A stretch of 44,265 bases of DNA from Candidatus Parcubacteria bacterium. GTDB taxonomy: Bacteria > Patescibacteriota > Minisyncoccia > Phycocordibacterales > CAIZLB01. The DNA is taken from positions 1-44,265 of the forward strand of contig JAYSOO010000100.1 of assembly GCA_043722755.1 (NCBI GenBank). The letters run 5' to 3'. Below the pieces are notes generated by a model, which made no database searches, was not told the origin of the DNA, and saw nothing but the letters and a program-made list of their open reading frames with translations. Positions 714-43,808 of this stretch are shown here, piece by piece; position 1 is the stretch's first letter; each line of letters opens with the position of its first letter. The translations under genes were made by a program, and so were the position numbers.

Positions 714-3700
714 CTAGACAACTTTTCTTTTTATATTATAGACCTCAACCTCTTCATCTTGCGTTTCGTATTGGCTATTTAACTCTGTTTGAAGATTTAA
801 AATATCTTGATATTTCTTACTTCCTTCAAAGCCTGTTCCTGCTGGTATCAATCTACCAATCAAAGTGTTTTCCATAATACCGTATAGTGGATCATGCTGA
901 CCCTTTAGAGACGCATTAACTAAGATACGGTTTGTGTTTTGAAATGAGGCTGCGGTTAGGAAAGATTGTCTATTTAGTGATCCTTCCATAGTACCCATGA
1001 TCGTTGTTCTACCTTTTGCTGGCATACTTTCTTTTTCTGCGCAGATTCTGTTTGTTCTAACAAATTCGAATGTTTCTACAACATCACCCATAGAAAGTTC
1101 TGTGTCTCCCTTATCAGTAATAATTACACGATTGAACATCTCACGAACAACAATCTCGATGTGTTTTCGTCCAAGATTTACACCTTGTAGTTCGTAAATC
1201 TTCTTAACTTCTCCGATGATATATGACTGAGCTGCATCACGACCTGCAAACTCGTAGATCTCATTTACGTCAGCTGAACCATCAGTCATGATTTGACCTT
1301 TAGTTACATGTTGACCAACCTTTACTTGAACGATACGAACTGGGTGAACTGAGAATTCCAATTCACTACCTGTTTTCTTTGAAGCTTTCAAAGGCACATC
1401 TGGCAAGATTCTTATAACTTTCTCATTGTTCTTTTCTATAACCGCAGTTACAACTCCATCATGAGATGCAATAGCTGCAGGATTCTTTGGTGTTCTGTTT
1501 TCAAATAATTCTTCAACACGTGGAAGACCAGCAGTAATATCTCCTCCCGACACAGCTACACCTCCGGCGTGGAAGGTACGCATAGTAAGCTGTGTTCCAG
1601 GTTCACCAATAGCTTGAGCAGCAATAGTTCCAACTGATTCTCCTAGATCGATAAGCTCACCTGTTGAAAGGTCGGCACCGTAACATTTTGAACAAACACC
1701 TCTGTCTGTTTTACATGTTAATGGAGATCTTACGTACAATTCTTCGATTCCTGCCTTATCAATAACTTTTGAATCATCTTTTGAAATCAAGTGACCCTTT
1801 TTAAATAACACCTCTCCATTTTCATCAGCTAAGTCGGCTGCCAAAATTCTACCAAAAATGTTTTTACTGAAAGATGTTTCGATACCTGAAGCAGTTTTCT
1901 TAGTCGAAATGATCGAATCATTAGTTTTACAATCAAATTCAGTAATGATAACTGACTGTGCTAAAATAAACAGTTTACGAGTCAAGTAACCAGCCTTAGC
2001 AGTGTTCAAGGCGGTATCTGTCATACCTTTACGTGCACCGTGAGTTGAAATAAAGTATTCGATTGGAGTAAGACCTTCTTTGAAAGAAGACTTAATCGGC
2101 AACTCGATGGTTGTTCCCTGCGCAGTGGCAATAAGACCTTTAATACCAACCATCTGGTTGATATTACCAATAGATCCACGAGCTCCTGAAAGGACCATGT
2201 CATTCACAGGGCCGTTATCAGGTAATGTTGCAGGAATCATTTTCTCGATTTGAGATTGCACACTTTGCCATAGACGGATTATTTTCACGTGCTTTTCTGT
2301 TTCTGATAGCAAACCTTTGTTGAATGCATCATACACAGCATCAGCTGATTCTTGTGCATCATCAAGCGCCTTGTATTTATCTTCTGGAATTTGGATATCT
2401 GATATAGCCCAAGTGATACCTGATTTTGTAGCAAAAGAGAAACCAAATTTCTTAATTGAGTCGATTATTGGAGCAACATTGTTTCTTCCTTCTTTGATAA
2501 TCAATTCATCAATCACGCCATTCATCACGTTTTTGTTTATTTCGCGGTTAATGAATGTAATATTTTCTGGCAATAATCTGTTAAATAATATACGTCCAAC
2601 TGTTGTGTCAAACAATTTCCCTGAGTATTCACCAAACTTTCCATCTTCAGGCGCCAAAACTTTGATAGGAGCACGGTGTGAGATTATATCATTGTTCAAG
2701 GCTATGATAGCAGCCTCAGGTGATTCAAAATATTTATCCGCACCCAATTCTGAAGAAACCATTTTAGTTACCCAGTATGATCCAACAACTATATCAAGCA
2801 TTTTATCTGTAATAGTTGCATCTCCTGATCCTGGCTTCAAGATGTTTTTGTCAGAAGCCATGATGTTATGCGCTTCGTATTGAGCTTCTTCTGAAAGAGG
2901 AACGTGAACTGACATCGTATCTCCATCGAAGTCAGCGTTAAACGGTGAACAAACAAGTGGATGTAGTTGGATCGCATTTCCTTCTATAAGAATAGGTTGG
3001 AATGCTTGTACTGAAAGTCTGTGTAGTGTTGGAGCACGGTTTAGCAATACATATTTATCTTTGATAATATCTTCTAATATTGACCAAACAACTTCATCTC
3101 TATCTTCGATCATTCTGTTTGCTCCTTTGATACTAAATGCCAATTCTTTTCCTAAAATTTGTGAAATAACGAAAGGTTTGAACAATTCCAAAGCCATATT
3201 CTTTGGTAGTCCACATTGATTAAGCTTAAGATCTGGTCCCACAACGATAACTGAACGACCTGAATAGTCAACACGCTTACCAAGTAGGTTTTGTCTGAAA
3301 ATACCTCTCTTACCTTTCAAGTTGTCAGCAATAGATTTAAGTGATCTTTTTTGTCCTGGGTTTATTCCTGAAAATGCTGGACCATTACCTTTCATAGAGT
3401 TATCAAGCAGTGCGTCAACAGCCTCTTGCAATATTCTTTTTTCGTTTCTCAGGATAACGTCTGGCGCTTTTATATCATAAAGTTTTTTAAGACGATTGTT
3501 TCTGTTTATAACTCTTCTGTATAGATCGTTAATGTCAGATGTAGCCTGTCTGCCTCCGTCAAGTGCAACCATAGGACGAAGTGCAGCAGGAATAACAGGC
3601 AAGGCTTTGATGAAAGTCCATTCTGGTCGTACACCTGATTTTTTCATCGCATTGATAAATCCTAATCTTCTGATGATTTTTTCTCTTTCAACTGAAGTAG

Positions 3701-4499: not shown

Positions 4500-7400
4500 T
4501 TATTCTTCAGTTGCTACTACCTCTCCTACTTCAGTAACACTTTCTTCATCCTCCATATCTAATCCATATTCTTCATCCATTTGATTTCTGTTTTCTTGAT
4601 GATCTCCAACGTGTCCAACATCAAGTCCAACATCAAGTTCTTTGCCTTGATCATTGTCGAATCCAACATCTATACACAGTCCTCTTAGGTTTGACAGCAA
4701 CACGTTAAATGATGCAGGTGTATTTGGATCAGAAATTCTTTCACCCTTAACGATAGCATCATATGTAGCTGATCTACCCAAGATATCATCTGATTTTATA
4801 GTTAACATTTCACGTAAAGTATATGACGCTCCGTAACCTGCAAGTGCCCAAACCTCCATTTCTCCAAATCTTTGTCCTCCTCCCTGAGCCTTACCTCCAA
4901 GTGGCTGTTGAGTGATAAGAGAGTATGGTCCTGTTGAACGTGCATGGATCTTATCCTCAACCATGTGGTGAAGTTTAAGCATGTACATATATCCAACTGC
5001 AACATCTTGCTGGAACATGTCTCCTGTTCGTCCGTCGAACAACTTCATTTTTCCTGATCTGTCATACCCTGCTGTTACCAACTCATCTTGAACTTCTTCA
5101 GCTGTAGGTCCCATGAATGCAGGAACGATAGCTTGATAGCCAAGTTTTGAAGCGGCCAATCCCAAGTGTAGCTCAAGGATCTGACCCAAGTTCATACGAG
5201 ATGGAACACCAAGAGGTGTAAGAATCATATCTACAGGCGTACCATCAGCCATGTAAGGCATATCTTCAACAGGCAATACTTTTGATATAACACCTTTGTT
5301 TCCGTGACGTCCTGCAAGTTTATCTCCAACTGAGATATTTCGAAGCAGAGCAACTTCGACGTAGATTCTTTTTAAGATACCTGATTCTAGCTTGTCACCT
5401 CTTTCTCTTGAAAATGTTTTTATACCGATAACTCTTCCTCTCTTTCCGTTTTCCAATCTCTTTGAGGTATCTTTCACGTCCCTAGCTCTGTCACCAAAGA
5501 TAGATCTTAGAAGTCTTTCTTCAGGCGTTAGTTGTGTTTCTGTTTTTGGAGTGATCTTTCCAACCAAGATGTCTCCAGGTCGAACTTCTGCACCAATACG
5601 AATAATACCTTCAGCATCAAGATCTTTAAGCTTTCCTTCTGATACGTTTGGTATATCATGAGTTGTAACTTCAGGTCCGATCTTTGTATCACGAACGTTG
5701 ATTACAAATTCTTCAATATGAATAGATGTAAACTTTGATTTCTTAACCAAGTTTTCTGAGATAATAATAGCATCTTCATAGTTTGATCCAGACCATGTTA
5801 GGAATGCAATCAAAATATTTTGCCCTAGCGCGATTTGACCTTCAACAGATGTTGAAGTGTCAGCAAGAACGTCTCCTCTTTTTACTTTTTGTCCTAAGCT
5901 TACTGTAGGTCTTTGATGAAATACTGTAAATTGGTTTGTTTTATTGAAAACAGCAAGTCTATATGTAGTCTCTCTCTTACCTTTTATAGTGATTGAGGCA
6001 GCATCAACTGCTGTGATCTCTCCATCTTCTGGTGCTATGATAACGCGCCCTGTATCTCGTGCAGCAGTCTCTTCAATACCTGTAGCAACAAAAGCTGCCT
6101 CAGGAACAATACAAGGTGTTGCTTGTTTCTGCATACCTGATCCCATGAGTGATCTGTTAGCATCGTTATGATTCACAAAAGGAATCATAGAAGTGGCGAT
6201 AGAAAACGGCTGACCAGATGCGATATCGATCAAATCTACATCTTTTTTATCAACGATAGTTGGATCACCTTTTAGACGAACCTCTACCATTTCATCTGCG
6301 ATTTGACCATTTTTATCATAGTTGATAGCAGCATGAGCAATCTTGAATCCTTCTTCTTGCAACGCATCAAGATATACGATTTCTTTTGTAATTTTTCCCT
6401 TGGAAACTTTTGCATATGGAGTCTCGATCATTCCAAAATTATTTACTCTCGCGTAGGCTGCCAAGTGAAGAACAAGACCAATGTTGGCACCTTCAGGTGT
6501 ATGTATTGGACATACACGACCATAATGAGAAGAGTGAACATCACGAACCTCAACACCAGCTCTGTCAGATGAAAGACCTCCTTGACCTAGTGCTGTAAGG
6601 ATTCTTAAGTGTTCCAACTCTGAAAGAACGTTTTCTTGGTTCATGAATTGTGACAATGGGTTTGTAGAGAAATATTCTTTGATTCTAGCTTGTAGTGGAC
6701 GAGGAGATATCAATTGCATAGGCTGACTTACATCTGACTCTATAGTCGACATTCTATTTTGAACGTTTTTCTTGATTTGCAAAAGACCAAGTCTCACTTT
6801 TTGTTGTAATTGTTCACCAACAAATCTAACACGTCTTGAACCTAAGTGATCAACATCATCAGCTTCTGATTCAGGAATGTTTGTCATGTTACAAATATGT
6901 GAAATAAGAGTTATAAAGTCATCAAGATTTAGAGTATTTCTTGCCAAGTCTTTTTCTTCCATACTTTTTCCAAAACGAGAGTTAAATCGAAAACGTCCAA
7001 CTCTTGAGAAATCATATCTCTCTGATTTGAACATGTTTTCTACAAAATCTTTCGCGTTTTGAGCTGTAGCAAGCTCACCATCTCTCATTTTTTTGTAAAT
7101 TTCAACAACAGCTTCTTCTGCTGTTTTTGTATGATCTTTTGCTAAAGTATGATCTATATATGATTTGATGTTTTCATCATCTCCAAACAAATCTTTGATA
7201 TCAGAATCAGTTCCGGCTCCAAGAGCTCTAAGCAGTGTTGTTACTGGGAATTTTCTTTTTTTGTCGATCTTAACATATACACCTCCATCAGTATCTGTAT
7301 TTATTTCTATCCATGAACCACGCGCTGGAATAATCTTTGCTCCGATATAATTTTTTCCTTTATGCTCATCTGACGTAAAGAATGCTCCAAAACTTCTCGC

Positions 7401-9231: not shown

Positions 9232-9259
9232 TTGACTCCACATAAATATTTGCTATAAT
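9232..9259 (+). promoter_or_regulatory. promoter of the candidate sRNA (DUF3800 copy 1)
   Basis: TTGACT, a 16-nt spacer ending TGC, then TATAAT. The hexamers and TGC are conserved with 25361-25388 while the spacer sequence differs. Confidence 0.6.
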
Positions 9260-9265
9260 AGACCC

Positions 9266-9345
9266 ATAGCAAGTTAGACCTCCATAAGAGGGGCTGCCAT
9301 CGGCGGCCCGCGCGTAGAACATACGCAGATCTTAGGAGGCTTTGC
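9266..9345 (+). ncRNA. candidate structured sRNA convergent with DUF3800 copy 1
   Basis: Driven by promoter 9232-9259. Closing helices GCAAG/CTTTGC and CCTCC-A-TAAGA / TCTTA-GGAGG enclose hairpins at 9291-9309 and 9312-9326. The T:G pair in the first hairpin is tolerated only on the + strand. Homologous to 25395..25467. Ends are approximate. Confidence 0.55.
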
Positions 9346-9348
9346 TTA

Positions 9349-24746: not shown

Positions 24747-25343
24747 ATGAACCTTCCGCAAATTCTGCAAGTGTTGTCGGGTATCATTTTGATGATTGTC
24801 CCGATTATTATGATCACACGAGTGATGGCCAGCAAGATCAACCCGAACGCAACATCCTTCCTTATACGAAGCGTTGTTGCTGTTGCAAACCTGATTACCT
24901 ATTTCAACATGACTCACCAGAGCTCATGGAAATCGATTGTCATGCTGGCTTCCGCGGTGTCGTTGACTTTAATATTCGTCACATGCGCTTACAAAAACGG
25001 TTTCAAGAATTTAAACAAAATAGACAAGATCAGTGCAACTCTTAGCCTGGTCATACTTCTATTTTGGGGATTCAGCGGAAAAGACATTGCGACAAACCTG
25101 TTGCTTCAAGTCGTTATCGCAGTATCCTACATCCCGACAATCAATGGAATCAAAAAGAGAATCAACAAAGAGATTGTACTTCCCTGGGCACTCGCTTCAA
25201 CTTCATATGCTTTGGCTTTAACCAGCCTTATCATAATGAACTCGAGCTTTGTGTCGATGGTAAACCCTATCCTTTGCCTAGCACTCAATACGGTTACAAC
25301 GATCATCATAAGAATCGTCAACAAAAAAACGCAATCCCAGTGA
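24747..25343 (+). CDS. polytopic membrane protein (6-7 TM), function unknown
   Basis: 198-aa ORF, somewhat G+C-richer than its neighbours. Consensus promoter at 24669-24697. A terminator overlaps its stop codon (25330-25353). Confidence 0.6.
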   Translation: MNLPQILQVLSGIILMIVPIIMITRVMASKINPNATSFLIRSVVAVANLITYFNMTHQSSWKSIVMLASAVSLTLIFVTCAYKNGFKNLNKIDKISATLSLVILLFWGFSGKDIATNLLLQVVIAVSYIPTINGIKKRINKEIVLPWALASTSYALALTSLIIMNSSFVSMVNPILCLALNTVTTIIIRIVNKKTQSQ

Positions 25344-25353
25344 TTGCGTTTTT
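25330..25353 (+). terminator. intrinsic terminator of ORF 24747..25343
   Basis: CGCAATC / GATTGCG stem followed by T5. The stop codon lies inside the hairpin. Confidence 0.75.
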
Positions 25354-25360
25354 CTTTTAT

Positions 25361-25388
25361 TTGACACCGTTATCAAATCTGCTATTAT
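25361..25388 (+). promoter_or_regulatory. promoter of the candidate sRNA (DUF3800 copy 2)
   Basis: TTGACA, a 16-nt spacer ending TGC, then TATTAT. Confidence 0.6.
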
Positions 25389-25394
25389 TAACTC

Positions 25395-25467
25395 ATAAAC
25401 AAGTCAGACCTCCATGTGAGGACTATCCAAAGGGTAGTCCAAAAGCTCACAGGAGGCTTTGTTTTTT
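25395..25467 (+). ncRNA. candidate structured sRNA convergent with DUF3800 copy 2
   Basis: Driven by promoter 25361-25388. It has the same closing helices, with compensatory changes (TGTGAG/CTCACA). Apical hairpin GACTA/TAGTC. Ends in a T6 run. Overlaps the 3' end of ORF 25404..26006 in antisense. Confidence 0.55.
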
Positions 25468-26006
25468 ATTATAGTTATGAGATTTTGTAACTTCATAAAA
25501 TATTTAGGTGAGTCATGTTCAAAATTTGAAAATATAGACCAAGAATAAAAATCTGCAATTTGAAGAGATTTTTCTTTATTCGGTTCTGAAAAAATCGCTT
25601 TTAATCCATATAGTAAATACATCTCGAGTATTTTCTTATTGTAATACTTTCTAATATCTTTTCTGGCTATAGTGACATTTTTTATATTATTTTCTTTAAA
25701 ATATTTAGCCAGCTCCTCAAGCGTGTAGAGATAAACATCTTTTTCAAATTGTTTATCTTTATCAAAAACATAAACAACACACTGTATATTGCTCTCAATT
25801 ATTTTCTGTACGAGCTTATTCTTAACGACTTTATTCTCTTTATGTGCATGGAAGTTTACTGATCTATCAATTTTAAATTTATGAATATTCTTTGCAATAC
25901 GTCGCAACATGAAAATATCATTAACAATAACACTTGTTAATATAAAATATCTACTTGATTTCTTTTTGTATCCAGTGTCCCCACTTTCATCTATGTATGC
26001 ATACAT
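25404..26006 (-). CDS. DUF3800-family protein (copy 2)
   Basis: 200-aa ORF starting MYAYIDESGDTGY, paralog of 9349..9900. The last ~21 codons extend beyond the homologous end of copy 1 and are antisense to the candidate sRNA. Confidence 0.7.
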   Translation of the reverse strand: MYAYIDESGDTGYKKKSSRYFILTSVIVNDIFMLRRIAKNIHKFKIDRSVNFHAHKENKVVKNKLVQKIIESNIQCVVYVFDKDKQFEKDVYLYTLEELAKYFKENNIKNVTIARKDIRKYYNKKILEMYLLYGLKAIFSEPNKEKSLQIADFYSWSIFSNFEHDSPKYFMKLQNLITIIKNKASCELLDYPLDSPHMEV

Positions 26007-26073
26007 TCGTAAATCCTAGCAAAACACCCATAAAATTTTGATAAAGAAATAATCAAGAAACATTGTCGAAAAA

Positions 26074-26108
26074 ATAAAAAAACCGACTTCAGAATTACCC
26101 TTAGTCAG
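26074..26108 (-). terminator. intrinsic terminator after gyrB
   Basis: On the minus strand: CTGACT...AGTCGG (one G:U pair) followed by a T-run. Confidence 0.55.
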
Positions 26109-38590: not shown

Positions 38591-38674
38591 ATACCAATTA
38601 AAACATTTTGCATATGTAGTATATTAAAAGAAAAGATAAAGTTTTGATGAAGATTAGATAAAGTTTATTGAAAG

Positions 38675-38704
38675 AAAACTAAAAGCACCCCGAAGGATGC
38701 TTTT
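38675..38704 (-). terminator. terminator about 105 nt downstream of DUF3800 copy 3
   Basis: On the minus strand: GCATCC-TTCG-GGGTGC (UUCG loop, one G:U pair) followed by TTTTAGTTTT. Confidence 0.6.
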
Positions 38705-38808
38705 AACCGAGCCATTGGACGGTACAGCCTATACTGTACTTGAGGACTCGTATATTTGTCGAGCGTTTTTAACTAGTATAAAACCAATGGACTTACCATA
38801 TATATATG

Positions 38809-39480
38809 TTATTCCTTTTCGTTTTCCTTGTCAACGTTTAAAGGAAAAATTACTGATTTAACAATCTTATTCGAAAAATAACAATAAAAATAGTCTTTAT
38901 TGTAATTATGCTTAGCATAGATAGCATTCGCAAACATATCGACAGCTTGTAAATTTTTATGTTTTCGAGAATTTTCATACCTAACGTATATTTGTTTATT
39001 GTAGAGCGAATATTTTAACAATTCGGTGCGTAAATAATCTTCAAGAGATTTTTCTGATGTTATTTTTACATTCCTTTCATCTATGGTTACATATACATTT
39101 AACACATCTGTTTTCATTAGCAATGGATGCATCATTAATTGAACCATATAATTAAAACAAATATCTTTATTTTTAAATAATTCAGGATGCACATTATCTT
39201 TGTCTACGATTAAATAGTAGATATTAAAATCAATTGGATCTACATACGTAAAAAAGAATTTCTTATCATTAAAAGCCATTTGATTTGAGTGCAATTCTTT
39301 ATCCTTACCTGTTTTAGATTTTTCTTTTATAATATATTTAACCATGCTAGCAAACTTTTTTCCTTGAAAATCATCAAGCATTAAAGCACATATGACAAAA
39401 TATCGACCATTCTTTCCAATGTCCATTGTTCCCGACTCGTCTATGTAGATGTATAATTCGTTTTTGTCCACGTAGGACAA
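38809..39480 (-). CDS. DUF3800-family protein (copy 3, divergent)
   Basis: 223-aa ORF with LYIYIDESGTMD near the N-terminus. It has a TTG start as drawn, so the exact start is uncertain. Lies directly downstream of the Type III res gene. Confidence 0.6.
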   Translation of the reverse strand: MSYVDKNELYIYIDESGTMDIGKNGRYFVICALMLDDFQGKKFASMVKYIIKEKSKTGKDKELHSNQMAFNDKKFFFTYVDPIDFNIYYLIVDKDNVHPELFKNKDICFNYMVQLMMHPLLMKTDVLNVYVTIDERNVKITSEKSLEDYLRTELLKYSLYNKQIYVRYENSRKHKNLQAVDMFANAIYAKHNYNKDYFYCYFSNKIVKSVIFPLNVDKENEKE

Positions 39481-39547: not shown

Positions 39548-41818
39548 TTATAATTCTAACTTTTTCCATGTTTTACTATCTCCCATTTGCCATTCCTTAT
39601 CTTTATATATAACAATACCGCCAAAAACATTTTTATTCTTTTTTATGTAATCATGCAATGCTTCAGATTTTGCTTTTGTAAATGTATGAACATCTCTATC
39701 TGATTCATCTTTTGTTTCGAATATACCGATTTTTCCATCTTTAAATTGAACAATGTAATCAGGATAAAAAGTATGGACAGGATCTTTTCCGTCCTTATTA
39801 TCGAATTCGTAGCGAATACCGAAGTAATCATCTCTGTTAACACCATTTTTGTACCACCAAGAAATCATATTCGATCCATCGAGTACTTTTTCGAATTCTT
39901 TTTCTGGGTTTGAACGGTTTCTGTCTAAATAACATGGGTTTAATATATATCTTTTGTAATCAATCACCTCCGTAACTTGAGAGTTGAAATAATCCTTGGA
40001 TGGAATCTCAAACACAGAAGGATGCTCGGTATCTTCTTTTGCTTTTTGTTTTTTAACTATTGAATACTCGTTAACTGCCCGAATAAATATTGGTTCAATC
40101 TTAGATTTATTTAAAATAAGTATAGCCTGAGTGGATAGGAAATAATCTTTTGTAACATCAGGACCAAAAATGTTTTGACACATAATAAGCCAAGCGACAT
40201 TCATAGACGGAACAGATCTAGCCACGTTCGTAAAGGGTACCATCATATACCTAAACAAACCCTTTGCAGTAAGTTCGATTTGTCTATCACTTACATTTAG
40301 AGTCTCATAATCATCTTCTTCAAGGGGTGTATTGTATTTATCTATCACACTTATTTCAACAAAAATATCAGATATAACTTTATGATAAATATCCCCCCTT
40401 TCAAATTTCCAACCTACTTTGCTGAGTTTATCTATATTTTTTGTATGATCCCCCGCCTTTAAATCAAGTTCTTTCAAAAATTGATTTAACAATACCGGTT
40501 TAAAATCTGACTTAATATCTTGATAATCTGCACGCTCTTTGTAAAAGGAATTAAGGTGTATTGGTTTATAGGCATCCTTTCTAACTGCCAACTGATCACC
40601 TAATATCTTTGGATTATAATTTTCAATATCAAATGATACATCATCCGAGTTAACATATACATAGGCTTTATTTAAAGACTCTACTTCATAATGTTTCTGT
40701 TCTGGTGTTCTCAATATTCTACCTAGAACCTGTATTTCAAACACTTCACTTTGTATCTCTCTAAACTTTAACAACACTTGTGCCCGAGGACAATCCCATC
40801 CTACTGCGATAGCTTGTTTAAATATCAAAAACTCTTGTATTCCATCATTTTTACTTATATTTTCTATATTTCTCTCCTTTACATCCTTTTCATGTAACCA
40901 AATAGCAAGTCGTTCATCATCTTGATCAATTCCTTTTTCCTTTTTTAAAAAATCTAAAACTACCTCCTTAATAGACTCCCCATCTCCACTATTTGGTAAC
41001 TGTATAAGTAGTAGAGGATTAACGTCTATGCCATTTTCCTTATAAAGTTTTGCAAGCTCATCCCTCTTGTGAACAGCGGTTCGTAAAACAGTCTGGTCAC
41101 TGTCATCTTTTTTCAATAACACAAAACCAGCATTTACCAATATCTGATCTTTAATCATCTCTTCGTCAATAACATCCTGTGCTTCTATTTCTTCTTTGTA
41201 GAATTCAGTTGCATCATTGATGTTAACTTTAGGTGTGGCGGAAACCTCTATAACTACATTTGGATTTATCAAATCAATAATCTCGCCACTACGTAGTGAA
41301 TCTGTGTGACTTTGAGACTCATCTATAATTAATATTATTTTTCTATTGATAGAGTTGGTATTATCTAGCATTTCCCTAAAATTTACATGATCACCGTCTT
41401 TCATTACGATGTTTTTCCATTCTTGAGTTTTATTATCCTTAGACCGTATCTTATTCCAGCTCGAAACCAAAACTGAATCTTTTGAAAGTTCATATCGTGC
41501 CGTACCAAAAACATCTTCAATGCTTTCTATTTTTACATTTTCACCAATATTTTTTTGCAATGATCTTTTACTTTGATTATGTAGATCCCCTGTTCCAATA
41601 GATAACCACAAAAAAGTAAAATCAATATTTTTACTCTCTTTATTTTCTTTTATCAAACTCTCTATAATTCCAGCCATCATGACTGTTTTACCTGACCCTG
41701 TTGGAGCTTTGAAAGTTATAACTCTTTTTTTATCATCTTTATAAGATAAAAAAGAATTGGCTTTATTTTTTATATTCGCAACAGCTTTTTGTTGATATTC
41801 TTTAAGTGTAAATTTCAT
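39548..41818 (-). CDS. res: Type III restriction enzyme, Res subunit (SF2 helicase plus PD-(D/E)xK nuclease)
   Basis: 756-aa ORF. Motif I KAPTGSGKTVMM, motif II LIIDESQSH and a C-terminal PDYIV...ETKDE nuclease-like motif. Lies 6 nt downstream of mod. Confidence 0.85.
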   Translation of the reverse strand: MKFTLKEYQQKAVANIKNKANSFLSYKDDKKRVITFKAPTGSGKTVMMAGIIESLIKENKESKNIDFTFLWLSIGTGDLHNQSKRSLQKNIGENVKIESIEDVFGTARYELSKDSVLVSSWNKIRSKDNKTQEWKNIVMKDGDHVNFREMLDNTNSINRKIILIIDESQSHTDSLRSGEIIDLINPNVVIEVSATPKVNINDATEFYKEEIEAQDVIDEEMIKDQILVNAGFVLLKKDDSDQTVLRTAVHKRDELAKLYKENGIDVNPLLLIQLPNSGDGESIKEVVLDFLKKEKGIDQDDERLAIWLHEKDVKERNIENISKNDGIQEFLIFKQAIAVGWDCPRAQVLLKFREIQSEVFEIQVLGRILRTPEQKHYEVESLNKAYVYVNSDDVSFDIENYNPKILGDQLAVRKDAYKPIHLNSFYKERADYQDIKSDFKPVLLNQFLKELDLKAGDHTKNIDKLSKVGWKFERGDIYHKVISDIFVEISVIDKYNTPLEEDDYETLNVSDRQIELTAKGLFRYMMVPFTNVARSVPSMNVAWLIMCQNIFGPDVTKDYFLSTQAILILNKSKIEPIFIRAVNEYSIVKKQKAKEDTEHPSVFEIPSKDYFNSQVTEVIDYKRYILNPCYLDRNRSNPEKEFEKVLDGSNMISWWYKNGVNRDDYFGIRYEFDNKDGKDPVHTFYPDYIVQFKDGKIGIFETKDESDRDVHTFTKAKSEALHDYIKKNKNVFGGIVIYKDKEWQMGDSKTWKKLEL

Positions 41819-41824
41819 ATAGTT

Positions 41825-43510
41825 TTATTTAATACTTGGCATTTCTTCTATGTTTATATTTTTCCAATCTTTCAATTTTTCTATTGTTTCTTTTGGATTT
41901 GTAAGTGAGAATATATAGGCTGATTTTGTACCCACAAATTTTTCTAAATCTTTGTACATGTTTTCTAGATCCACATCATCTATGCCGTAATATATGGCTG
42001 TACTGTGAGCTAAGTTATTCATAATCTTATACGATGGTTTTGTAACATTAATATCAAAAATACCTTCCTTTAAAGAAATCAAATCAGTAGAATTTTTAGA
42101 TAGATTAAATTTCATATTATCTTCATGTTTTATTCTGTCAATAAAATCGCATTTTAAATATTCTAAATTCCCACCCAAACATTCTACCTTTTCTCCTTTT
42201 TTATTTTTATATCCATTCATTACCCTTTTTAATCTTTCATAGGTAATTTTTTCTGCGATCTTGTGTTCACTTTTTTCATCCCCATTATTTGTAACTAGAA
42301 TGAATTGGCGATTACCACCATCTTCTTTATTGAGTTCGAGTACCGCGTGTCCTGTGGTCCCAGAACCCGCGAAGAAATCGAGGATGAGAGCATTTTTATT
42401 ACTAGACATTTCACACAAAGTTTTTATCAACTCAACAGGTTTTGCATTATTAAAATCTCTAACATCTAAATCTTTAATTATTTTTGTCCCATTTGTATTC
42501 GAGTAAATATTTTCAATAAAGGTTAACTGCGAGTAATTTTTAACTCTGTCATCATAATTTATATAATATCCGTTATTATTTTTTTCTATACTTGCTAGTA
42601 AATATTTTTTAGGCCAGACTCTATCATTTTTAAATTCAACAAAATCATTTTTTAAAGCAAACTCAAATTTATCCTTTGACCATGTCCATCTATATCCATT
42701 ATTTTCAGGTATACCGCCAGGATAATACAGAATATCGTTGTGTTTAATTGGGTAATCTAATGAACTTACATAACCTAAACTTATTGTATCTAGAGCTTGT
42801 TTTGTATGATAAAATCCTCTTTTTTCAAAATGAACATCTGAATACTTAAATGCCTTATCACCTTGAACTAAAATTTTATTAAAACCAGATAAGTCTATTT
42901 TTTTTGAATATGCTAACAAGTAGTCCATATTACTAGTACTGTGTGTACTTTGAGTTTTTCCTCCTTTTACTGTCAATCTAGGAAAAAAACTAATAAAATT
43001 ATCATTACCAAACACACCATCACACAACAATTTCAACTGCGCCTGTTCATTATCATCTATAGATATAAAAATAACTCCAGTATCTTTTAATAATTCTTTT
43101 GCCAGTTTCAATCTTCTTTCCATAAACGACAGCCACTTACTATGGCGATAGCCATCCTCACCATCAACAAAATTATCATTGTAAATAAAATCCTTATTCC
43201 CAGTATTATAAGGTGGATCAATATATATTACATCCACCTTGCCCTTATGCGTATAATTCAAAATCTGAAGTGCATGATAATTATCCCCTTCTATTAAAAC
43301 ATTCACTGGACCACCCTTATTATTCCTAATACTTCTTTCTTTTATATTTTTTAAAATAGGATATTTGTTCTCACACTCCAAAACAACATCTTCATCTTTA
43401 TCTTCCCACACTAAACCGTATTTTGTTTTTCTTTTTAACTTTTCTTCCAGCTCTTTTATACGAGAAAAAAGCTCTTCTTTATTTAAATCTTCTAATGACA
43501 TAGGCGACAT
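41825..43510 (-). CDS. mod: Type III DNA methyltransferase, Mod subunit (beta-class N6A/N4C)
   Basis: 561-aa ORF. Motif IV IDPPYNTG precedes motif I LDFFAGSGTTGHA. Confidence 0.9.
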   Translation of the reverse strand: MSPMSLEDLNKEELFSRIKELEEKLKRKTKYGLVWEDKDEDVVLECENKYPILKNIKERSIRNNKGGPVNVLIEGDNYHALQILNYTHKGKVDVIYIDPPYNTGNKDFIYNDNFVDGEDGYRHSKWLSFMERRLKLAKELLKDTGVIFISIDDNEQAQLKLLCDGVFGNDNFISFFPRLTVKGGKTQSTHSTSNMDYLLAYSKKIDLSGFNKILVQGDKAFKYSDVHFEKRGFYHTKQALDTISLGYVSSLDYPIKHNDILYYPGGIPENNGYRWTWSKDKFEFALKNDFVEFKNDRVWPKKYLLASIEKNNNGYYINYDDRVKNYSQLTFIENIYSNTNGTKIIKDLDVRDFNNAKPVELIKTLCEMSSNKNALILDFFAGSGTTGHAVLELNKEDGGNRQFILVTNNGDEKSEHKIAEKITYERLKRVMNGYKNKKGEKVECLGGNLEYLKCDFIDRIKHEDNMKFNLSKNSTDLISLKEGIFDINVTKPSYKIMNNLAHSTAIYYGIDDVDLENMYKDLEKFVGTKSAYIFSLTNPKETIEKLKDWKNINIEEMPSIK

Positions 43511-43555
43511 CTATGTTCATCGAGCTCCACTTATATTAATTATTAAACGACAAAA

Positions 43556-43685
43556 AGGGATACCCGATGGTCGCCACAATCATACAAGCGCAATGCCTGC
43601 AATCATGTGCATCGAGGTACCCCTCTACATGCGTGATTACTGGCATCCACTTTAAATGGTTTGCTTCTTATATGATTATGGCGAC
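43556..43685 (-). ncRNA. candidate structured leader or ncRNA upstream of the Type III mod gene
   Basis: Extended -10 TGCTATACT on the minus strand (43692-43700). A 15-bp closing helix joins 43685-43671 with 43584-43570; one G:T pair is valid only on the minus strand. Inner hairpin at 43601-43638. GGG-TAT-CCC plus T5 at 43565-43552. Confidence 0.4.
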
Positions 43686-43723
43686 ATGGCTAGTATAGCA
43701 TAACAGGTTGATCATTTACAGAT

Positions 43724-43751
43724 TTGACAGATCTGTTCCTTTTGCTATAAT
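43724..43751 (+). promoter_or_regulatory. promoter of the candidate sRNA (MazF-like copy 2)
   Basis: TTGACA, a 16-nt spacer ending TGC, then TATAAT. Confidence 0.6.
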
Positions 43752-43757
43752 ATAAGC

Positions 43758-43808
43758 ACAAATGGGTTATCCCGGACATCCGAGCTTTTCAGCTCGGATT
43801 TAATTTTT
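43758..43808 (+). ncRNA. candidate sRNA convergent with MazF-like copy 2
   Basis: Driven by promoter 43724-43751. Its 5' end ATAAGCAC matches copy 1 (ATAAAGCAC). Hairpins GGG-TTAT-CCC and ATCCGAGC/GCTCGGAT (43778-43799), then a T-rich tail reaching the toxin stop codon. Confidence 0.5.

What the first reader, a model, noticed from the sequence alone, without database searches (positions are those of the whole stretch)
25361..26075. Second DUF3800-sRNA module: compensatory base changes and promoter-only conservation support a functional RNA
Seen in sequence: the coding DNA of the two modules has diverged strongly outside the N-terminal ~45 codons. Even so, the blocks CAAGT(T/C)AGACCTCCAT and AGGAGGCTTTG are identical in both. 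The promoter hexamers and the TGC of the extended -10 are conserved (TTGACT/TTGACA, TATAAT/TATTAT). The 16-nt spacer keeps its length but not its sequence. Paired positions covary. TAAGA/TCTTA in copy 1 becomes TGTGAG (25415-25420) / CTCACA (25446-25451) in copy 2. G9269:C9345 becomes A25399:T25462. The apical hairpin occupies the same place with unrelated sequence: GACTA 25421-25425 pairs with TAGTC 25435-25439. Copy 2 ends in a T6 run (25462-25467), so the closing helix also looks like an intrinsic terminator. In copy 2 the DUF3800 ORF runs 21 codons further than copy 1 (…KASCELLDYPLDSPHMEV). As a result the mRNA and RNA would be perfectly complementary over about 64 nt (25404-25467).
Basis: seen in the sequence. 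Interest (0 to 1): 0.8.

Follow-up and report, generated by a model that had tools for sequence, protein, structure and literature searches.

The report
Small RNA gene paired with DUF3800
A roughly 72-base structured RNA with its own strong promoter lies tail-to-tail against a gene for an RNase HII-like DUF3800 protein in a Patescibacteria genome; the pair recurs across that phylum and is a new, well-supported example of the still-unexplained DUF3800-associated RNAs.

Summary

- **Promoter and RNA.** At 25361-25388 there is an 11/12 sigma-70 promoter with a TG-extended -10. It is followed by a bulged hairpin RNA (about 25395-25467) that ends in a U run. This RNA converges on, and overlaps, the 3' end of a DUF3800 ORF (25404-26006, minus strand).
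- **Recurrence.** A covariance model finds 45 copies in 382 kb of held DNA. All but three loci lie at the 3' end of a DUF3800 gene, or at a contig end where the gene could not be seen.
- **Structure.** 94% of cells are paired, 18 of 22 pairs show double changes, and 0 of 500 shuffles reach these values.
- **Strand.** There are 92 G-U against 17 A-C cells, which puts the RNA on the promoter strand. It is therefore not the mRNA's 3' UTR or terminator.
- **Rfam.** No Rfam 15 family matches.
- **ORF tail.** The 20-codon ORF tail through the RNA is clade-specific read-through, modelled with low confidence.
- **Third module.** A third DUF3800 gene in the window carries a different RNA on the same strand as the gene. 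Antisense pairing is therefore unlikely to be the general logic.

Best reading: this is the cognate RNA partner of an RNase HII-like nuclease, probably inhibitory or regulatory, with the antisense overlap as a secondary layer. It is a new member of a known but unexplained kind.

The parts
25325..25353 (+). Intrinsic terminator of the upstream + strand gene (24747-25343). It insulates the sRNA unit at its 5' side. It has A and T runs on both sides, so it could also stop minus-strand transcripts.
   Evidence: Terminator scan; inverted repeat I2.
25361..25388 (+). sRNA promoter: -35 TTGACA 25361-25366, 16-nt spacer, TG 25380-25381, -10 TATTAT 25383-25388.
   Evidence: 11 of 12 match with TG. The same promoter is present at the same distance in 21 of 24 protein-anchored homologous loci.
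25395..25467 (+). Type-1 DUF3800-associated sRNA, about 72 nt; the start is inferred from the -10. P1 is 25398-25402 / 25459-25463. The bulge is G25403 U25404 C25405. P2 is 25406-25407 / 25457-25458, then bulged A25408, then 25409-25413 / 25452-25456, then 25415-25420 / 25446-25451. The apical hairpin P3 is 25420-25428 / 25432-25440. The U run is 25462-25467.
   Evidence: CM hit 25393-25469, 70 bits, E 3.5e-13; fold -29.9 kcal/mol, z -6.5; covariation on 43 distinct sequences; strand test.
25404..26006 (-). DUF3800 ORF, copy 2, 200 aa, RNase HII-like. The last 20 codons (25404-25466) run through the sRNA gene.
   Evidence: Pfam PF12686 E 8e-13. AF2 mean pLDDT 87.8; residue blocks 181-190 and 191-200 average 61 and 39. 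Foldseek top hits are RNase HII/H2, E 2e-6. D6, E7, Q149 and D152 are invariant and D90 nearly invariant.
26013..26057 (-). DUF3800 promoter region: -10 TAGGAT 26013-26018 with TG at 26020-26021. The hexamer ends exactly 6 nt before the ATG, which implies a leaderless mRNA. Upstream lies the conserved block TTTCTTTATCAAAATTTTATGGGTGTTTTG.
   Evidence: The same TAnnnT hexamer ends 6 nt before the ATG in 18 of 24 loci scored automatically. Most exceptions are alternative start calls or 7-nt spacing.
9232..9259 (+). Promoter of the copy-1 sRNA (TTGACT-16-TATAAT, with TG).
9266..9349 (+). Copy-1 type-1 sRNA, about 84 nt, with an extra hairpin (9311-9325) inserted in the 3' linker.
   Evidence: CM hit 9264-9352, 58.8 bits; fold -38.5 kcal/mol, z -5.2.
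9349..9900 (-). DUF3800 ORF, copy 1, 183 aa. The stop codon lies in the sRNA's U-rich tail, 3 nt outside the last pair. Its own -10, TATGAT at 9907-9912, ends 6 nt before the ATG.
38674..38834 (-). Third module: promoter (TTGACA 38834-38829, TAACAT 38811-38806) inside the 3' end of a third DUF3800 ORF (38809-39480, minus). It drives a different structured RNA (about 38800 to 38674) on the SAME strand as the gene, ending in a terminator (38708-38677).
   Evidence: Pfam DUF3800 E 2e-14; promoter and terminator scan; conserved with compensatory changes in L086, L087, L088 and L091.

Best explanation
The element is a real, independently transcribed small RNA gene of about 72 nt.

**Anatomy.** It has a near-consensus extended -10 promoter and a long bulged hairpin that also serves as its own terminator. 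The basal part of the hairpin is sequence-invariant: 5' CAA-GUW-AG-A-CC paired with 3' GGCUUUG. The distal part and the apical hairpin vary freely while keeping their pairing.

**Proposed role (inferred).** I take it to be the cognate RNA partner of the adjacent DUF3800 protein, an RNase HII-like DEDD nuclease expressed from a weaker promoter as a leaderless mRNA. The abundant RNA would bind the protein through the invariant basal module. It would either hold the nuclease inactive, in the manner of an RNA antitoxin, or act as its cofactor or substrate. Loss of the RNA would then release or change the nuclease activity.

**Antisense overlap (inferred).** The tail-to-tail arrangement means the DUF3800 transcript must run into the RNA gene. 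This probably adds a second, cis layer (transcriptional interference or 3'-end duplex formation), but I do not think it is the primary logic.

**Shown:** the RNA gene, its strand, its promoter, its structure, its strict linkage to this DUF3800 subfamily, and the RNase HII-like fold with intact acidic residues.

**Inferred:** RNA-protein binding, inhibition, and any defence or addiction role.
For: - **Linkage from the protein side.** Every one of 23 protein-anchored loci of the subfamily has the RNA at the ORF's 3' end.
- **Linkage from the RNA side.** A metagenome scan for the RNA gave about 19 genuine motif hits. Fourteen have a convergent DUF3800 ORF within 14 nt, and 3 are at contig ends.
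- **Structure.** 94.2% of cells are paired, 18 of 22 pairs have double changes, 0 of 500 shuffles reach the observed values, and slid controls give 36-53%.
- **Strand.** G-U 92 against A-C 17; promoter conservation.
- **Sequence invariance inside helices.** In P1 and P2, A-U 41/41, A-U 41/41, A-U 42/42 and C-G 42/42 never vary. In most loci these positions are not covered by the ORF. This constraint is not needed for a perfectly complementary cis-antisense RNA and is typical of a protein-recognition surface.
- **Other DUF3800 subfamilies carry other RNAs.** Type 2 (L021, L026, L030) is convergent. Type 3, in this very window at 38674-38834, is on the same strand as its gene and so cannot be antisense. 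Types 1 and 3 share a 5' GUAAG(A/U)CC-like element.
- **Precedent.** Weinberg et al. 2017 (PMC5737381) found 11 DUF3800-associated RNA motifs lying on either side and in either orientation.
- **Extra RNA copy.** L003 carries a second tandem RNA, 121 nt from the ORF, with an intact 11/12 promoter and a 78-bit CM score.
- **Protein.** RNase HII/H2 fold, E 2e-6, TM about 0.55. D6, E7, Q149 and D152 are invariant and D90 nearly so.
- **Promoter strengths.** The sRNA promoter is near-consensus. The protein's promoter has a poor -35 and gives a leaderless mRNA. This asymmetry is typical of an antitoxin kept in excess.
Against: - No experiment or transcriptome was available. RNA-protein binding is entirely inferred.
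- The convergent, abutting arrangement is invariant for type 1 (38 of 38 visible loci). It is shared by the unrelated type-2 RNA even though the proteins are only about 25% identical. This argues that cis geometry itself matters.
- Two genomic places (three loci) have the RNA without DUF3800: L066/L069 next to a doc toxin gene, and a weak hit in L075.
- No PADLOC defence model matches the protein.
- The two type-1 modules of this window sit among housekeeping genes (rpoBC, gyrB), not in a defence island.
- Co-inheritance of adjacent sequences would by itself make RNA subtypes track protein clades.
Confidence: 0.5

Rival explanations
1. Pure cis-antisense regulator. The strongly transcribed convergent sRNA pairs with the 3' end of the DUF3800 mRNA, or collides with its transcription. 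This lowers DUF3800 expression through duplex cleavage (for example by RNase III) or interference. The RNA would have no protein-level role.
For: - The convergent, abutting or overlapping geometry holds in all 38 type-1 loci where the gene is visible. The stop codon lies 0-12 nt outside the last pair, or the ORF reads 4-60 nt (131 nt in divergent L014) into the RNA.
- The unrelated type-2 RNA has the same geometry.
- The DUF3800 mRNA appears to be leaderless, which leaves only the 3' end as an RNA-level control point.
- The sRNA promoter is much stronger than the gene's own promoter.
Against: - A cis-antisense RNA is complementary by construction. It needs neither invariant bases inside helices nor strand-specific G-U pairs nor compensatory changes in an apical hairpin.
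- The type-3 RNA in the same genome is on the same strand as its gene.
- DUF3800 motifs I-XI occur in either orientation (PMC5737381).
- The distal RNA copy in L003 and the orphan in L069 keep their structure without overlapping a DUF3800 mRNA.
Confidence: 0.22
2. The conserved hairpin is only the 3' UTR or intrinsic terminator of the DUF3800 mRNA on the minus strand, and the + strand promoter is fortuitous.
For: The hairpin also folds on the minus strand: -26.5 kcal/mol (z -4.4) and -33.7 kcal/mol (z -3.8). It lies directly after the stop codon in most loci.
Against: - G-U 92 against A-C 17 favours the + strand.
- On the minus strand the hairpin is followed by CUUGYUAUR and not by a U run.
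- A sigma-70 promoter matching at least 10 of 12 positions, with TG, lies at a fixed distance in 21 of 24 unselected loci.
- A U run follows the hairpin on the + strand.
Confidence: 0.03
3. An independent trans-acting sRNA with targets elsewhere in the genome, linked to DUF3800 only by co-inheritance in a compact cassette.
For: It has its own promoter and terminator. Orphan copies exist.
Against: - Linkage is close to absolute in both directions.
- Each DUF3800 subfamily has its own RNA type.
- There are several divergent copies per small genome (the window has two, and L001/L002 come from one MAG). This fits paired modules, not a single regulator.
- No extended single-stranded seed region is conserved. 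The invariant bases lie in or next to helices.
Confidence: 0.1
4. The RNA programmes the RNase HII-like protein as a guide, or forms the RNA strand of an RNA:DNA hybrid that the enzyme cuts. That would make it an RNA-directed nuclease system and not an inhibited toxin.
For: - The fold is RNase HII-like, and such enzymes act on RNA:DNA hybrids.
- DUF3800 accompanies retron type VII reverse transcriptases and Cas12a2/Cas12a3/Cas13 loci (PMC7736814, PMC10910872, PMC13594972).
- The distal part of the RNA is variable.
Against: - The variable part is kept base-paired by compensatory changes, so it is not an exposed guide.
- There are no arrays or spacer-like turnover.
- Close relatives share identical variable regions (alignment).
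Confidence: 0.08
5. A DNA-level element, such as a recombination site of the integron attC kind or a protein-binding palindrome.
For: It is an imperfect inverted repeat with bulged bases, and the 5' block contains GTTAGAC, which fits GTTRRRY.
Against: - The partner site RYYYAAC is absent at the other end, and the polarity is wrong for attC.
- Strand-specific G-U pairs together with the conserved promoter and U run point to an RNA.
- No flanking repeats were found.
Confidence: 0.02

Closest known systems
DUF3800-I to DUF3800-XI RNA motifs (Weinberg et al. 2017, NAR 45:10811; Rfam e.g. RF02969 DUF3800-I, RF02968 DUF3800-IX)
   Same: A structured, covariation-supported small RNA found next to genes for the DUF3800 domain. 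It often ends in an intrinsic terminator and its function is unknown. Different DUF3800 lineages carry structurally unrelated RNAs. A UAA-containing element recurs: here GUWAGACC (GUAAGACC where W = A) in type 1, and GUAAGUCC in type 3.
   Different: No Rfam 15 family matches, at gathering score or at E up to 10, in the window or in 19 homologous loci. This motif is confined to Patescibacteria, always converges on and abuts the ORF's 3' end, and has a clearly defined promoter. I could not read the 2017 supplement, and I do not know which of the eleven motifs are in Rfam. Identity with one that is absent from Rfam is therefore not formally excluded.
Type III toxin-antitoxin systems (ToxIN, CptIN, TenpIN)
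   Same: A protein nuclease paired with a dedicated, abundantly expressed structured RNA encoded next to it. This is the proposed working analogy: the RNA neutralises the protein directly.
   Different: Type III antitoxins are tandem repeats located upstream of the toxin in the same operon and are processed by the toxin. Here there is a single hairpin RNA with its own promoter, downstream and convergent. The protein has an RNase HII-like fold, not a ToxN/Kid-like one. Toxicity has not been shown.
Type I toxin-antitoxin pairs with convergent 3' overlap (txpA/RatA, bsrG/SR4 of Bacillus subtilis)
   Same: A convergent sRNA gene whose 3' end overlaps the 3' end of the partner mRNA, with a strong sRNA promoter.
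   Different: Type I toxins are small hydrophobic peptides, whereas DUF3800 is a soluble enzyme-like protein of 183-200 aa. The RNA here carries conserved structure and invariant bases that antisense pairing does not require.
Retron type VII (reverse transcriptase + DUF3800 + msr/msd RNA; Mestre et al. 2020, PMC7736814)
   Same: A DUF3800 RNase H2-like protein functionally tied to a structured non-coding RNA whose 5' and 3' ends pair.
   Different: No reverse transcriptase gene lies next to any of the modules examined.

Membership tests
DUF3800-associated RNA motifs (class of Weinberg et al. 2017) | Located next to a gene encoding the DUF3800 domain (PF12686) | tested here: met
   Pfam E about 1e-12 for both ORFs. 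Of 45 CM hits, 38 have a visible convergent DUF3800 ORF abutting or overlapping them. The other hits are 4 at contig ends and 3 loci without the gene.
DUF3800-associated RNA motifs (class of Weinberg et al. 2017) | Conserved secondary structure supported by covariation | tested here: met
   94.2% of cells paired, 18 of 22 pairs with changes on both sides, 0 of 500 shuffles, slid controls 36-53%.
DUF3800-associated RNA motifs (class of Weinberg et al. 2017) | Matches one of the already described motifs (Rfam covariance models DUF3800-I etc.) | tested here: not met
   No hit at gathering score, or at E up to 10, in the window regions or homologous loci. It is therefore a new motif within the class, not a copy of a described one.
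Type I TA, convergent 3'-overlap antisense RNA | sRNA transcribed antisense to, and overlapping, the partner mRNA | tested here: met
   The RNA's 3' end abuts or overlaps the ORF's 3' end in all visible loci. Transcription itself is inferred from promoters.
Type I TA, convergent 3'-overlap antisense RNA | Toxin is a small hydrophobic, membrane-active peptide | tested here: not met
   The partner is a 183-200 aa alpha/beta protein with an RNase HII-like fold.
Type I TA, convergent 3'-overlap antisense RNA | RNase III-dependent degradation of the duplex | not testable with these tools
   Needs experiment.
Type III TA (ToxIN-like) | Antitoxin RNA made of tandem direct repeats upstream of the toxin in one operon | tested here: not met
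   A single hairpin with its own promoter, downstream and convergent. Only L003 has two copies, each with its own promoter.
Type III TA (ToxIN-like) | RNA binds and inhibits the protein; the protein is toxic alone | not testable with these tools
   Inference only.
Intrinsic terminator / 3' UTR of the DUF3800 mRNA | Hairpin followed by a U run on the mRNA strand; wobble pairs compatible with that strand | tested here: not met
   No U run after the hairpin on the minus strand. G-U 92 against A-C 17 favours the opposite strand.
Retron (type VII) ncRNA | Adjacent reverse transcriptase gene | tested here: not met
   No RT domain among neighbouring genes in the window or in L077-L085.
Integron attC site | 5' RYYYAAC ... 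GTTRRRY 3' core sites at the two ends of an imperfect palindrome | tested here: not met
   GTTAGAC is at the 5' end and the 3' block is GGCTTTG. The polarity and the partner site are wrong.

The most novel reading that the evidence does not exclude
DUF3800 proteins and their neighbouring RNAs may form a widespread, so far unrecognised class of two-part RNA-protein modules. In this reading a dedicated, strongly expressed structured RNA directly holds an RNase HII-like nuclease in check, or arms it. That would be a new kind of RNA-antitoxin or abortive-infection system. Recognition would go through a shared GUAAG(A/U)CC-type element, and a reduced Patescibacteria genome keeps three such modules.
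Probability: 0.3. Interest if true: 0.75.

Novelty: new member of a known kind. Interest (0 to 1): 0.58.

Why it matters
DUF3800-associated RNAs have been an open puzzle since 2017. Eleven unrelated structures accompany one protein domain, and no function is known for either partner. DUF3800 also turns up beside retron type VII, Cas12a2/a3 and Cas13 systems.

This family adds a small and clean pair to work with: an RNA of about 72 nt and a protein of 183-200 aa. It comes with:
- defined promoters for both partners;
- a defined invariant RNA module to mutate;
- natural variants (43 distinct sequences);
- a same-genome contrast between convergent (type 1) and same-strand (type 3) arrangements.

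Together these make the question 'does the RNA act on the protein or on the mRNA?' directly testable in a heterologous host. It is also one of few well-supported new structured RNAs specific to Patescibacteria.

Tried and rejected
- **Rfam 15.** Searched at gathering score on the whole window and on 19 loci, and at E up to 10 on the two module regions, the third module and the type-2 loci. No DUF3800 motif or other relevant family matched. The only hits were tRNA, tmRNA and LOOT elsewhere. A 28-bit STnc150 match (gathering score 60) on the minus strand of 25318-25515 rests on the neighbouring terminator and A/T-rich sequence, so I dismissed it.
- **Phage origin.** The PHROG hits to RNA polymerase and tail fibre suggested a phage at first. 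The window is a Patescibacteria chromosome. rpoB/rpoC are about 43% identical to bacterial ones, the homologous loci are Parcubacteria, Saccharibacteria and Nomurabacteria MAGs, the phage records gave no nucleotide or protein match, and IMG/VR gave none.
- **Sequence search of solved structures.** Nothing found.
- **PADLOC.** No model matches any of the three DUF3800 proteins.
- **Flanking repeats that would mark a mobile cassette.** None found.
- **Known RNA-structure motifs.** By inspection the basal bulge is not a K-turn (AG follows the 3-nt bulge instead of GA, and there is no GA on the other strand). It is not a sarcin-ricin or loop E motif. The apical hairpin is not SRP domain IV, because its loops vary.
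- **Anti-Shine-Dalgarno idea.** The CCUCC arm is not conserved (it is CCCUCG, CCCCUA or CCUCGU elsewhere), and the mRNA appears leaderless.
- **2017 supplement.** It is not held, so the lineage lists of DUF3800-II to XI could not be read.
Full report
**What is in the sequence.** The region 25361-26075 holds a compact two-gene module.
- On the minus strand there is a 200-aa ORF (25404-26006) that matches Pfam DUF3800 (E 8e-13).
- On the plus strand, directly after the terminator of the upstream gene (25325-25353), there is an 11/12 sigma-70 promoter with a TG-extended -10 (TTGACA 25361-25366, TATTAT 25383-25388).
- Seven to ten bases after the -10 a long bulged hairpin begins. It ends in a T6 run (25462-25467).
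- The same layout is found at 9232-9900.
The only corrections are that the ORF tail is 20 residues, not 21 codons, and that the 64-nt complementarity is trivial for overlapping convergent genes.

**Origin of the window.** PHROG matches to RNA polymerase subunits and a tail-fibre-like protein first suggested a phage, but the window is bacterial.
- It holds full-length rpoC and rpoB about 43% identical to bacterial ones, gyrB, and tRNA synthetases, Fpg and type IV pilus genes.
- The relatives of the DUF3800 protein lie in Parcubacteria, Paceibacteria, Saccharibacteria and Nomurabacteria MAGs.
- Phage and viral collections hold neither the DNA, nor the protein, nor the RNA pattern.

**Is the RNA real, and on which strand?**
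- The database search found 75 relatives of the protein. Downstream of every subfamily member fetched through the protein (L001-L014, L077-L085), the same element is present.
- An alignment of 32 instances gave a consensus fold and a covariance model. That model finds 45 instances in 382 kb of held DNA, at 34-85 bits.
- On 43 distinct sequences, 94.2% of cells form standard pairs and 18 of 22 pairs show changes on both sides. None of 500 column shuffles reaches any of the five measures. Sliding the 3' partners by 1-3 columns drops pairing to 36-53%.
There are 92 G-U cells against 17 A-C cells, so 94.2% of cells pair on the promoter strand against 86.1% on the mRNA strand.
- In 24 instances that were not selected for a promoter, 21 have at least 10 of 12 consensus matches with 16-18 nt spacing. 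Twenty-one have TG before the -10, and the -10 always ends 7-10 nt before the first pair.
- A U-rich run follows the hairpin only on this strand.
- The element is therefore a small RNA gene of about 72 nt (84 nt in copy 1). It is not the 3' UTR or terminator of the DUF3800 mRNA.

**Anatomy of the RNA.**
- The base is nearly invariant: 5' A-R-C-A-A, then a G-U-W bulge, A-G, a bulged A and C-C, opposite 3' G-G-C-U-U-U-G-Y-U. Several of these pairs never vary in 41-42 sequences.
- Beyond the base, the rest of P2, the apical hairpin P3 and the 3' linker vary freely but keep pairing. Copy 1 has an extra hairpin in the linker.
- In most loci the ORF does not cover these bases, so coding constraint does not explain the invariance. 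A perfectly complementary antisense RNA would not need it either. This looks like a recognition surface.

**Linkage.** A metagenome scan with an RNA-only pattern plus the -35 returned 44 stretches.
- About 19 fold like the motif; the rest are GC-rich chance matches.
- Of the genuine ones, 14 have a convergent DUF3800 ORF within 14 nt, and 3 lie at contig ends.
- Two places lack the gene. One is L066/L069, where the RNA abuts a doc toxin gene inside a type I restriction island. The other is a weak, doubtful hit in L075.

**The ORF extension.** The position of the stop codon relative to the RNA varies.
- In 22 loci the stop lies 0-12 nt outside the last pair, that is, in the RNA's U-rich tail.
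- In the other loci the ORF reads 4, 12-16, 24 or 56-60 nt into the RNA (131 nt in the divergent L014).
- The 20-aa tail occurs in the copy-2 clade (L077, L080, L081). Unrelated tails of 19-23 aa, which also read through the RNA, occur in L084 and L085. The syntenic sister L078 (gyrB-DUF3800) has only 6 extra residues.
- The tail's amino acids simply translate the conserved RNA blocks (KAS = AAAGCCTCC; MEV-stop = ATGGAGGTCTGA).
- In the AlphaFold model, residue blocks 181-190 and 191-200 have mean pLDDT 61 and 39, against 87.8 overall.
- It is best read as tolerated read-through.

**The protein.**
- The model (pTM 0.83) matches archaeal and eukaryotic RNase HII/H2 best (3p83, 1i39, 2dff; E 2e-6 to 1e-4, TM about 0.55). 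This agrees with published remarks that DUF3800 has an RNase H-like fold (PMC7736814, PMC10910872).
- D6, E7, Q149 and D152 are invariant and D90 nearly invariant in 30 sequences. The N-terminal IDESG resembles the RNase HII GIDEAG motif; that comparison is from my own knowledge.
- A TAnnnT hexamer, often with TG, ends exactly 6 nt before the ATG in most loci. Upstream of it lies a conserved block, TTTCTTTATGAGAAYTTTATGGGTGTTTTG.
- This implies a leaderless mRNA from a promoter with a weak -35, in contrast to the near-consensus sRNA promoter.

**Other DUF3800-RNA pairs.**
- Distant relatives (L021, L026, L030; about 25% identity) carry a different convergent promoter-driven RNA, GGUCGCGAG..AAUCGCGCCCAUCGAAAG plus a terminator hairpin, with compensatory changes visible by eye. 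It is not in Rfam.
- A third DUF3800 gene in this window (38809-39480, Pfam E 2e-14) has a promoter inside its own 3' end. That promoter drives a roughly 125-nt structured RNA on the same strand.
- This third RNA is conserved in four other contigs, with 11 pairs changed on both sides. It begins with GGUAAGUCC, reminiscent of GUWAGACC in type 1.
- Because this RNA cannot be antisense to its gene, and because the 2017 study found DUF3800 motifs on either side and in either orientation, the common denominator of DUF3800-RNA pairs is unlikely to be antisense pairing.

**Mechanism.**
- Shown: the RNA gene, its strand, its structure, its promoters, its linkage to DUF3800, and the protein fold.
- Inferred: the abundant RNA binds the RNase HII-like protein through the invariant basal module and restrains or programmes it, in an RNA-antitoxin-like manner.
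- The convergent overlap adds a cis layer. The strict tail-to-tail geometry of types 1 and 2 keeps the pure antisense model alive as the main rival.
- Minus-strand terminator, DNA-level site, unrelated trans-sRNA and guide-RNA readings are weaker, for the reasons given with each rival.

**Comparison with what is known.**
- The kind is known: DUF3800-associated structured RNAs, often terminator-ended and of unknown function (Weinberg et al. 2017).
- This particular motif matches none of the Rfam models, is confined to Patescibacteria, and has a fixed geometry and a defined promoter.
- I could not read the 2017 supplement, so identity with a motif that is absent from Rfam cannot be formally excluded.
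- It works somewhat like a type III toxin-antitoxin pair and looks somewhat like a 3'-overlapping type I pair, but it fails defining features of both.

**Verdict.** It is a new member of a known but unexplained class, of moderate to high interest. It offers a minimal, well-defined pair and a built-in natural contrast (convergent against same-strand RNAs in one genome) for finally testing what DUF3800 RNAs do.

Noticed in passing
window 38674-39480 (minus strand): A third DUF3800 gene (Pfam E 2e-14) has a promoter (TTGACA-17-TAACAT) inside its 3' end. It drives a different structured RNA of about 125 nt on the same strand, ending in a terminator. The RNA is conserved with compensatory changes in L086, L087, L088 and L091. 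Its 5' GGUAAGUCC resembles the GUWAGACC of the type-1 RNA. No Rfam match.
   Followed up: partly
window 39548-44190: The third DUF3800 module sits directly after a type III restriction-modification pair (Res helicase 39548-41818, N6/N4 methylase 41825-43510) and near a PemK/MazF toxin gene (43807-44190). Res + DUF3800 synteny recurs in L086 and L087. By contrast, the two type-1 modules lie among housekeeping genes (rpoBC, gyrB).
   Followed up: partly
L021 about 3040-3200, L026 about 4650-4800, L030 about 1170-1330 (minus strand of each locus): Distant DUF3800 genes (about 25% identity) have another convergent, promoter-driven RNA: GGUCGCGAG..AAUCGCGCCCAUCGAAAG followed by a terminator hairpin. 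The first hairpin shows compensatory changes (CGCGA/UCGCG against CGCAA/UUGCG). Not in Rfam 15.
   Followed up: partly
window 26007-26057 and 9901-9950; upstream of DUF3800 in most loci: The -10 hexamer of the DUF3800 promoter ends exactly 6 nt before the ATG in most loci, which implies a leaderless mRNA. A longer conserved block (TTTCTTTATGAGAAYTTTATGGGTGTTTTG) lies upstream. It is more conserved than a promoter alone would need and may be an operator.
   Followed up: partly
L069 3713-3785 (also L066 791-863): An orphan type-1 RNA (59 bits) without DUF3800. It lies between a type I restriction hsdR gene and a phd/doc toxin-antitoxin pair, and the doc stop codon abuts the RNA's 3' end as DUF3800 does elsewhere. 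Its -10 is degraded (TACATT).
   Followed up: partly
L003 4535-4729: Two type-1 RNA genes of different subtypes in tandem, each with its own 11/12 promoter. Only the proximal one abuts the DUF3800 ORF.
   Followed up: partly
L027 5061-6199 and L028 3958-5109: In two different Parcubacteria MAGs another DUF3800 gene lies directly upstream of the tmRNA gene on the same strand. It may be coincidence or another DUF3800-RNA neighbourhood.
   Followed up: no
L030 1456-1576: A LOOT RNA (Rfam RF03000, 91.5 bits) lies about 290 nt from the type-2 DUF3800 module.
   Followed up: no
window 10041-12560 and L083 78-2360: A large protein with a Peptidase_S74 (endosialidase chaperone) domain, tail-fibre-like by PHROGs, lies next to the copy-1 type module in the window and next to its relative in L083. 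This is unusual content for a small Patescibacteria genome.
   Followed up: no
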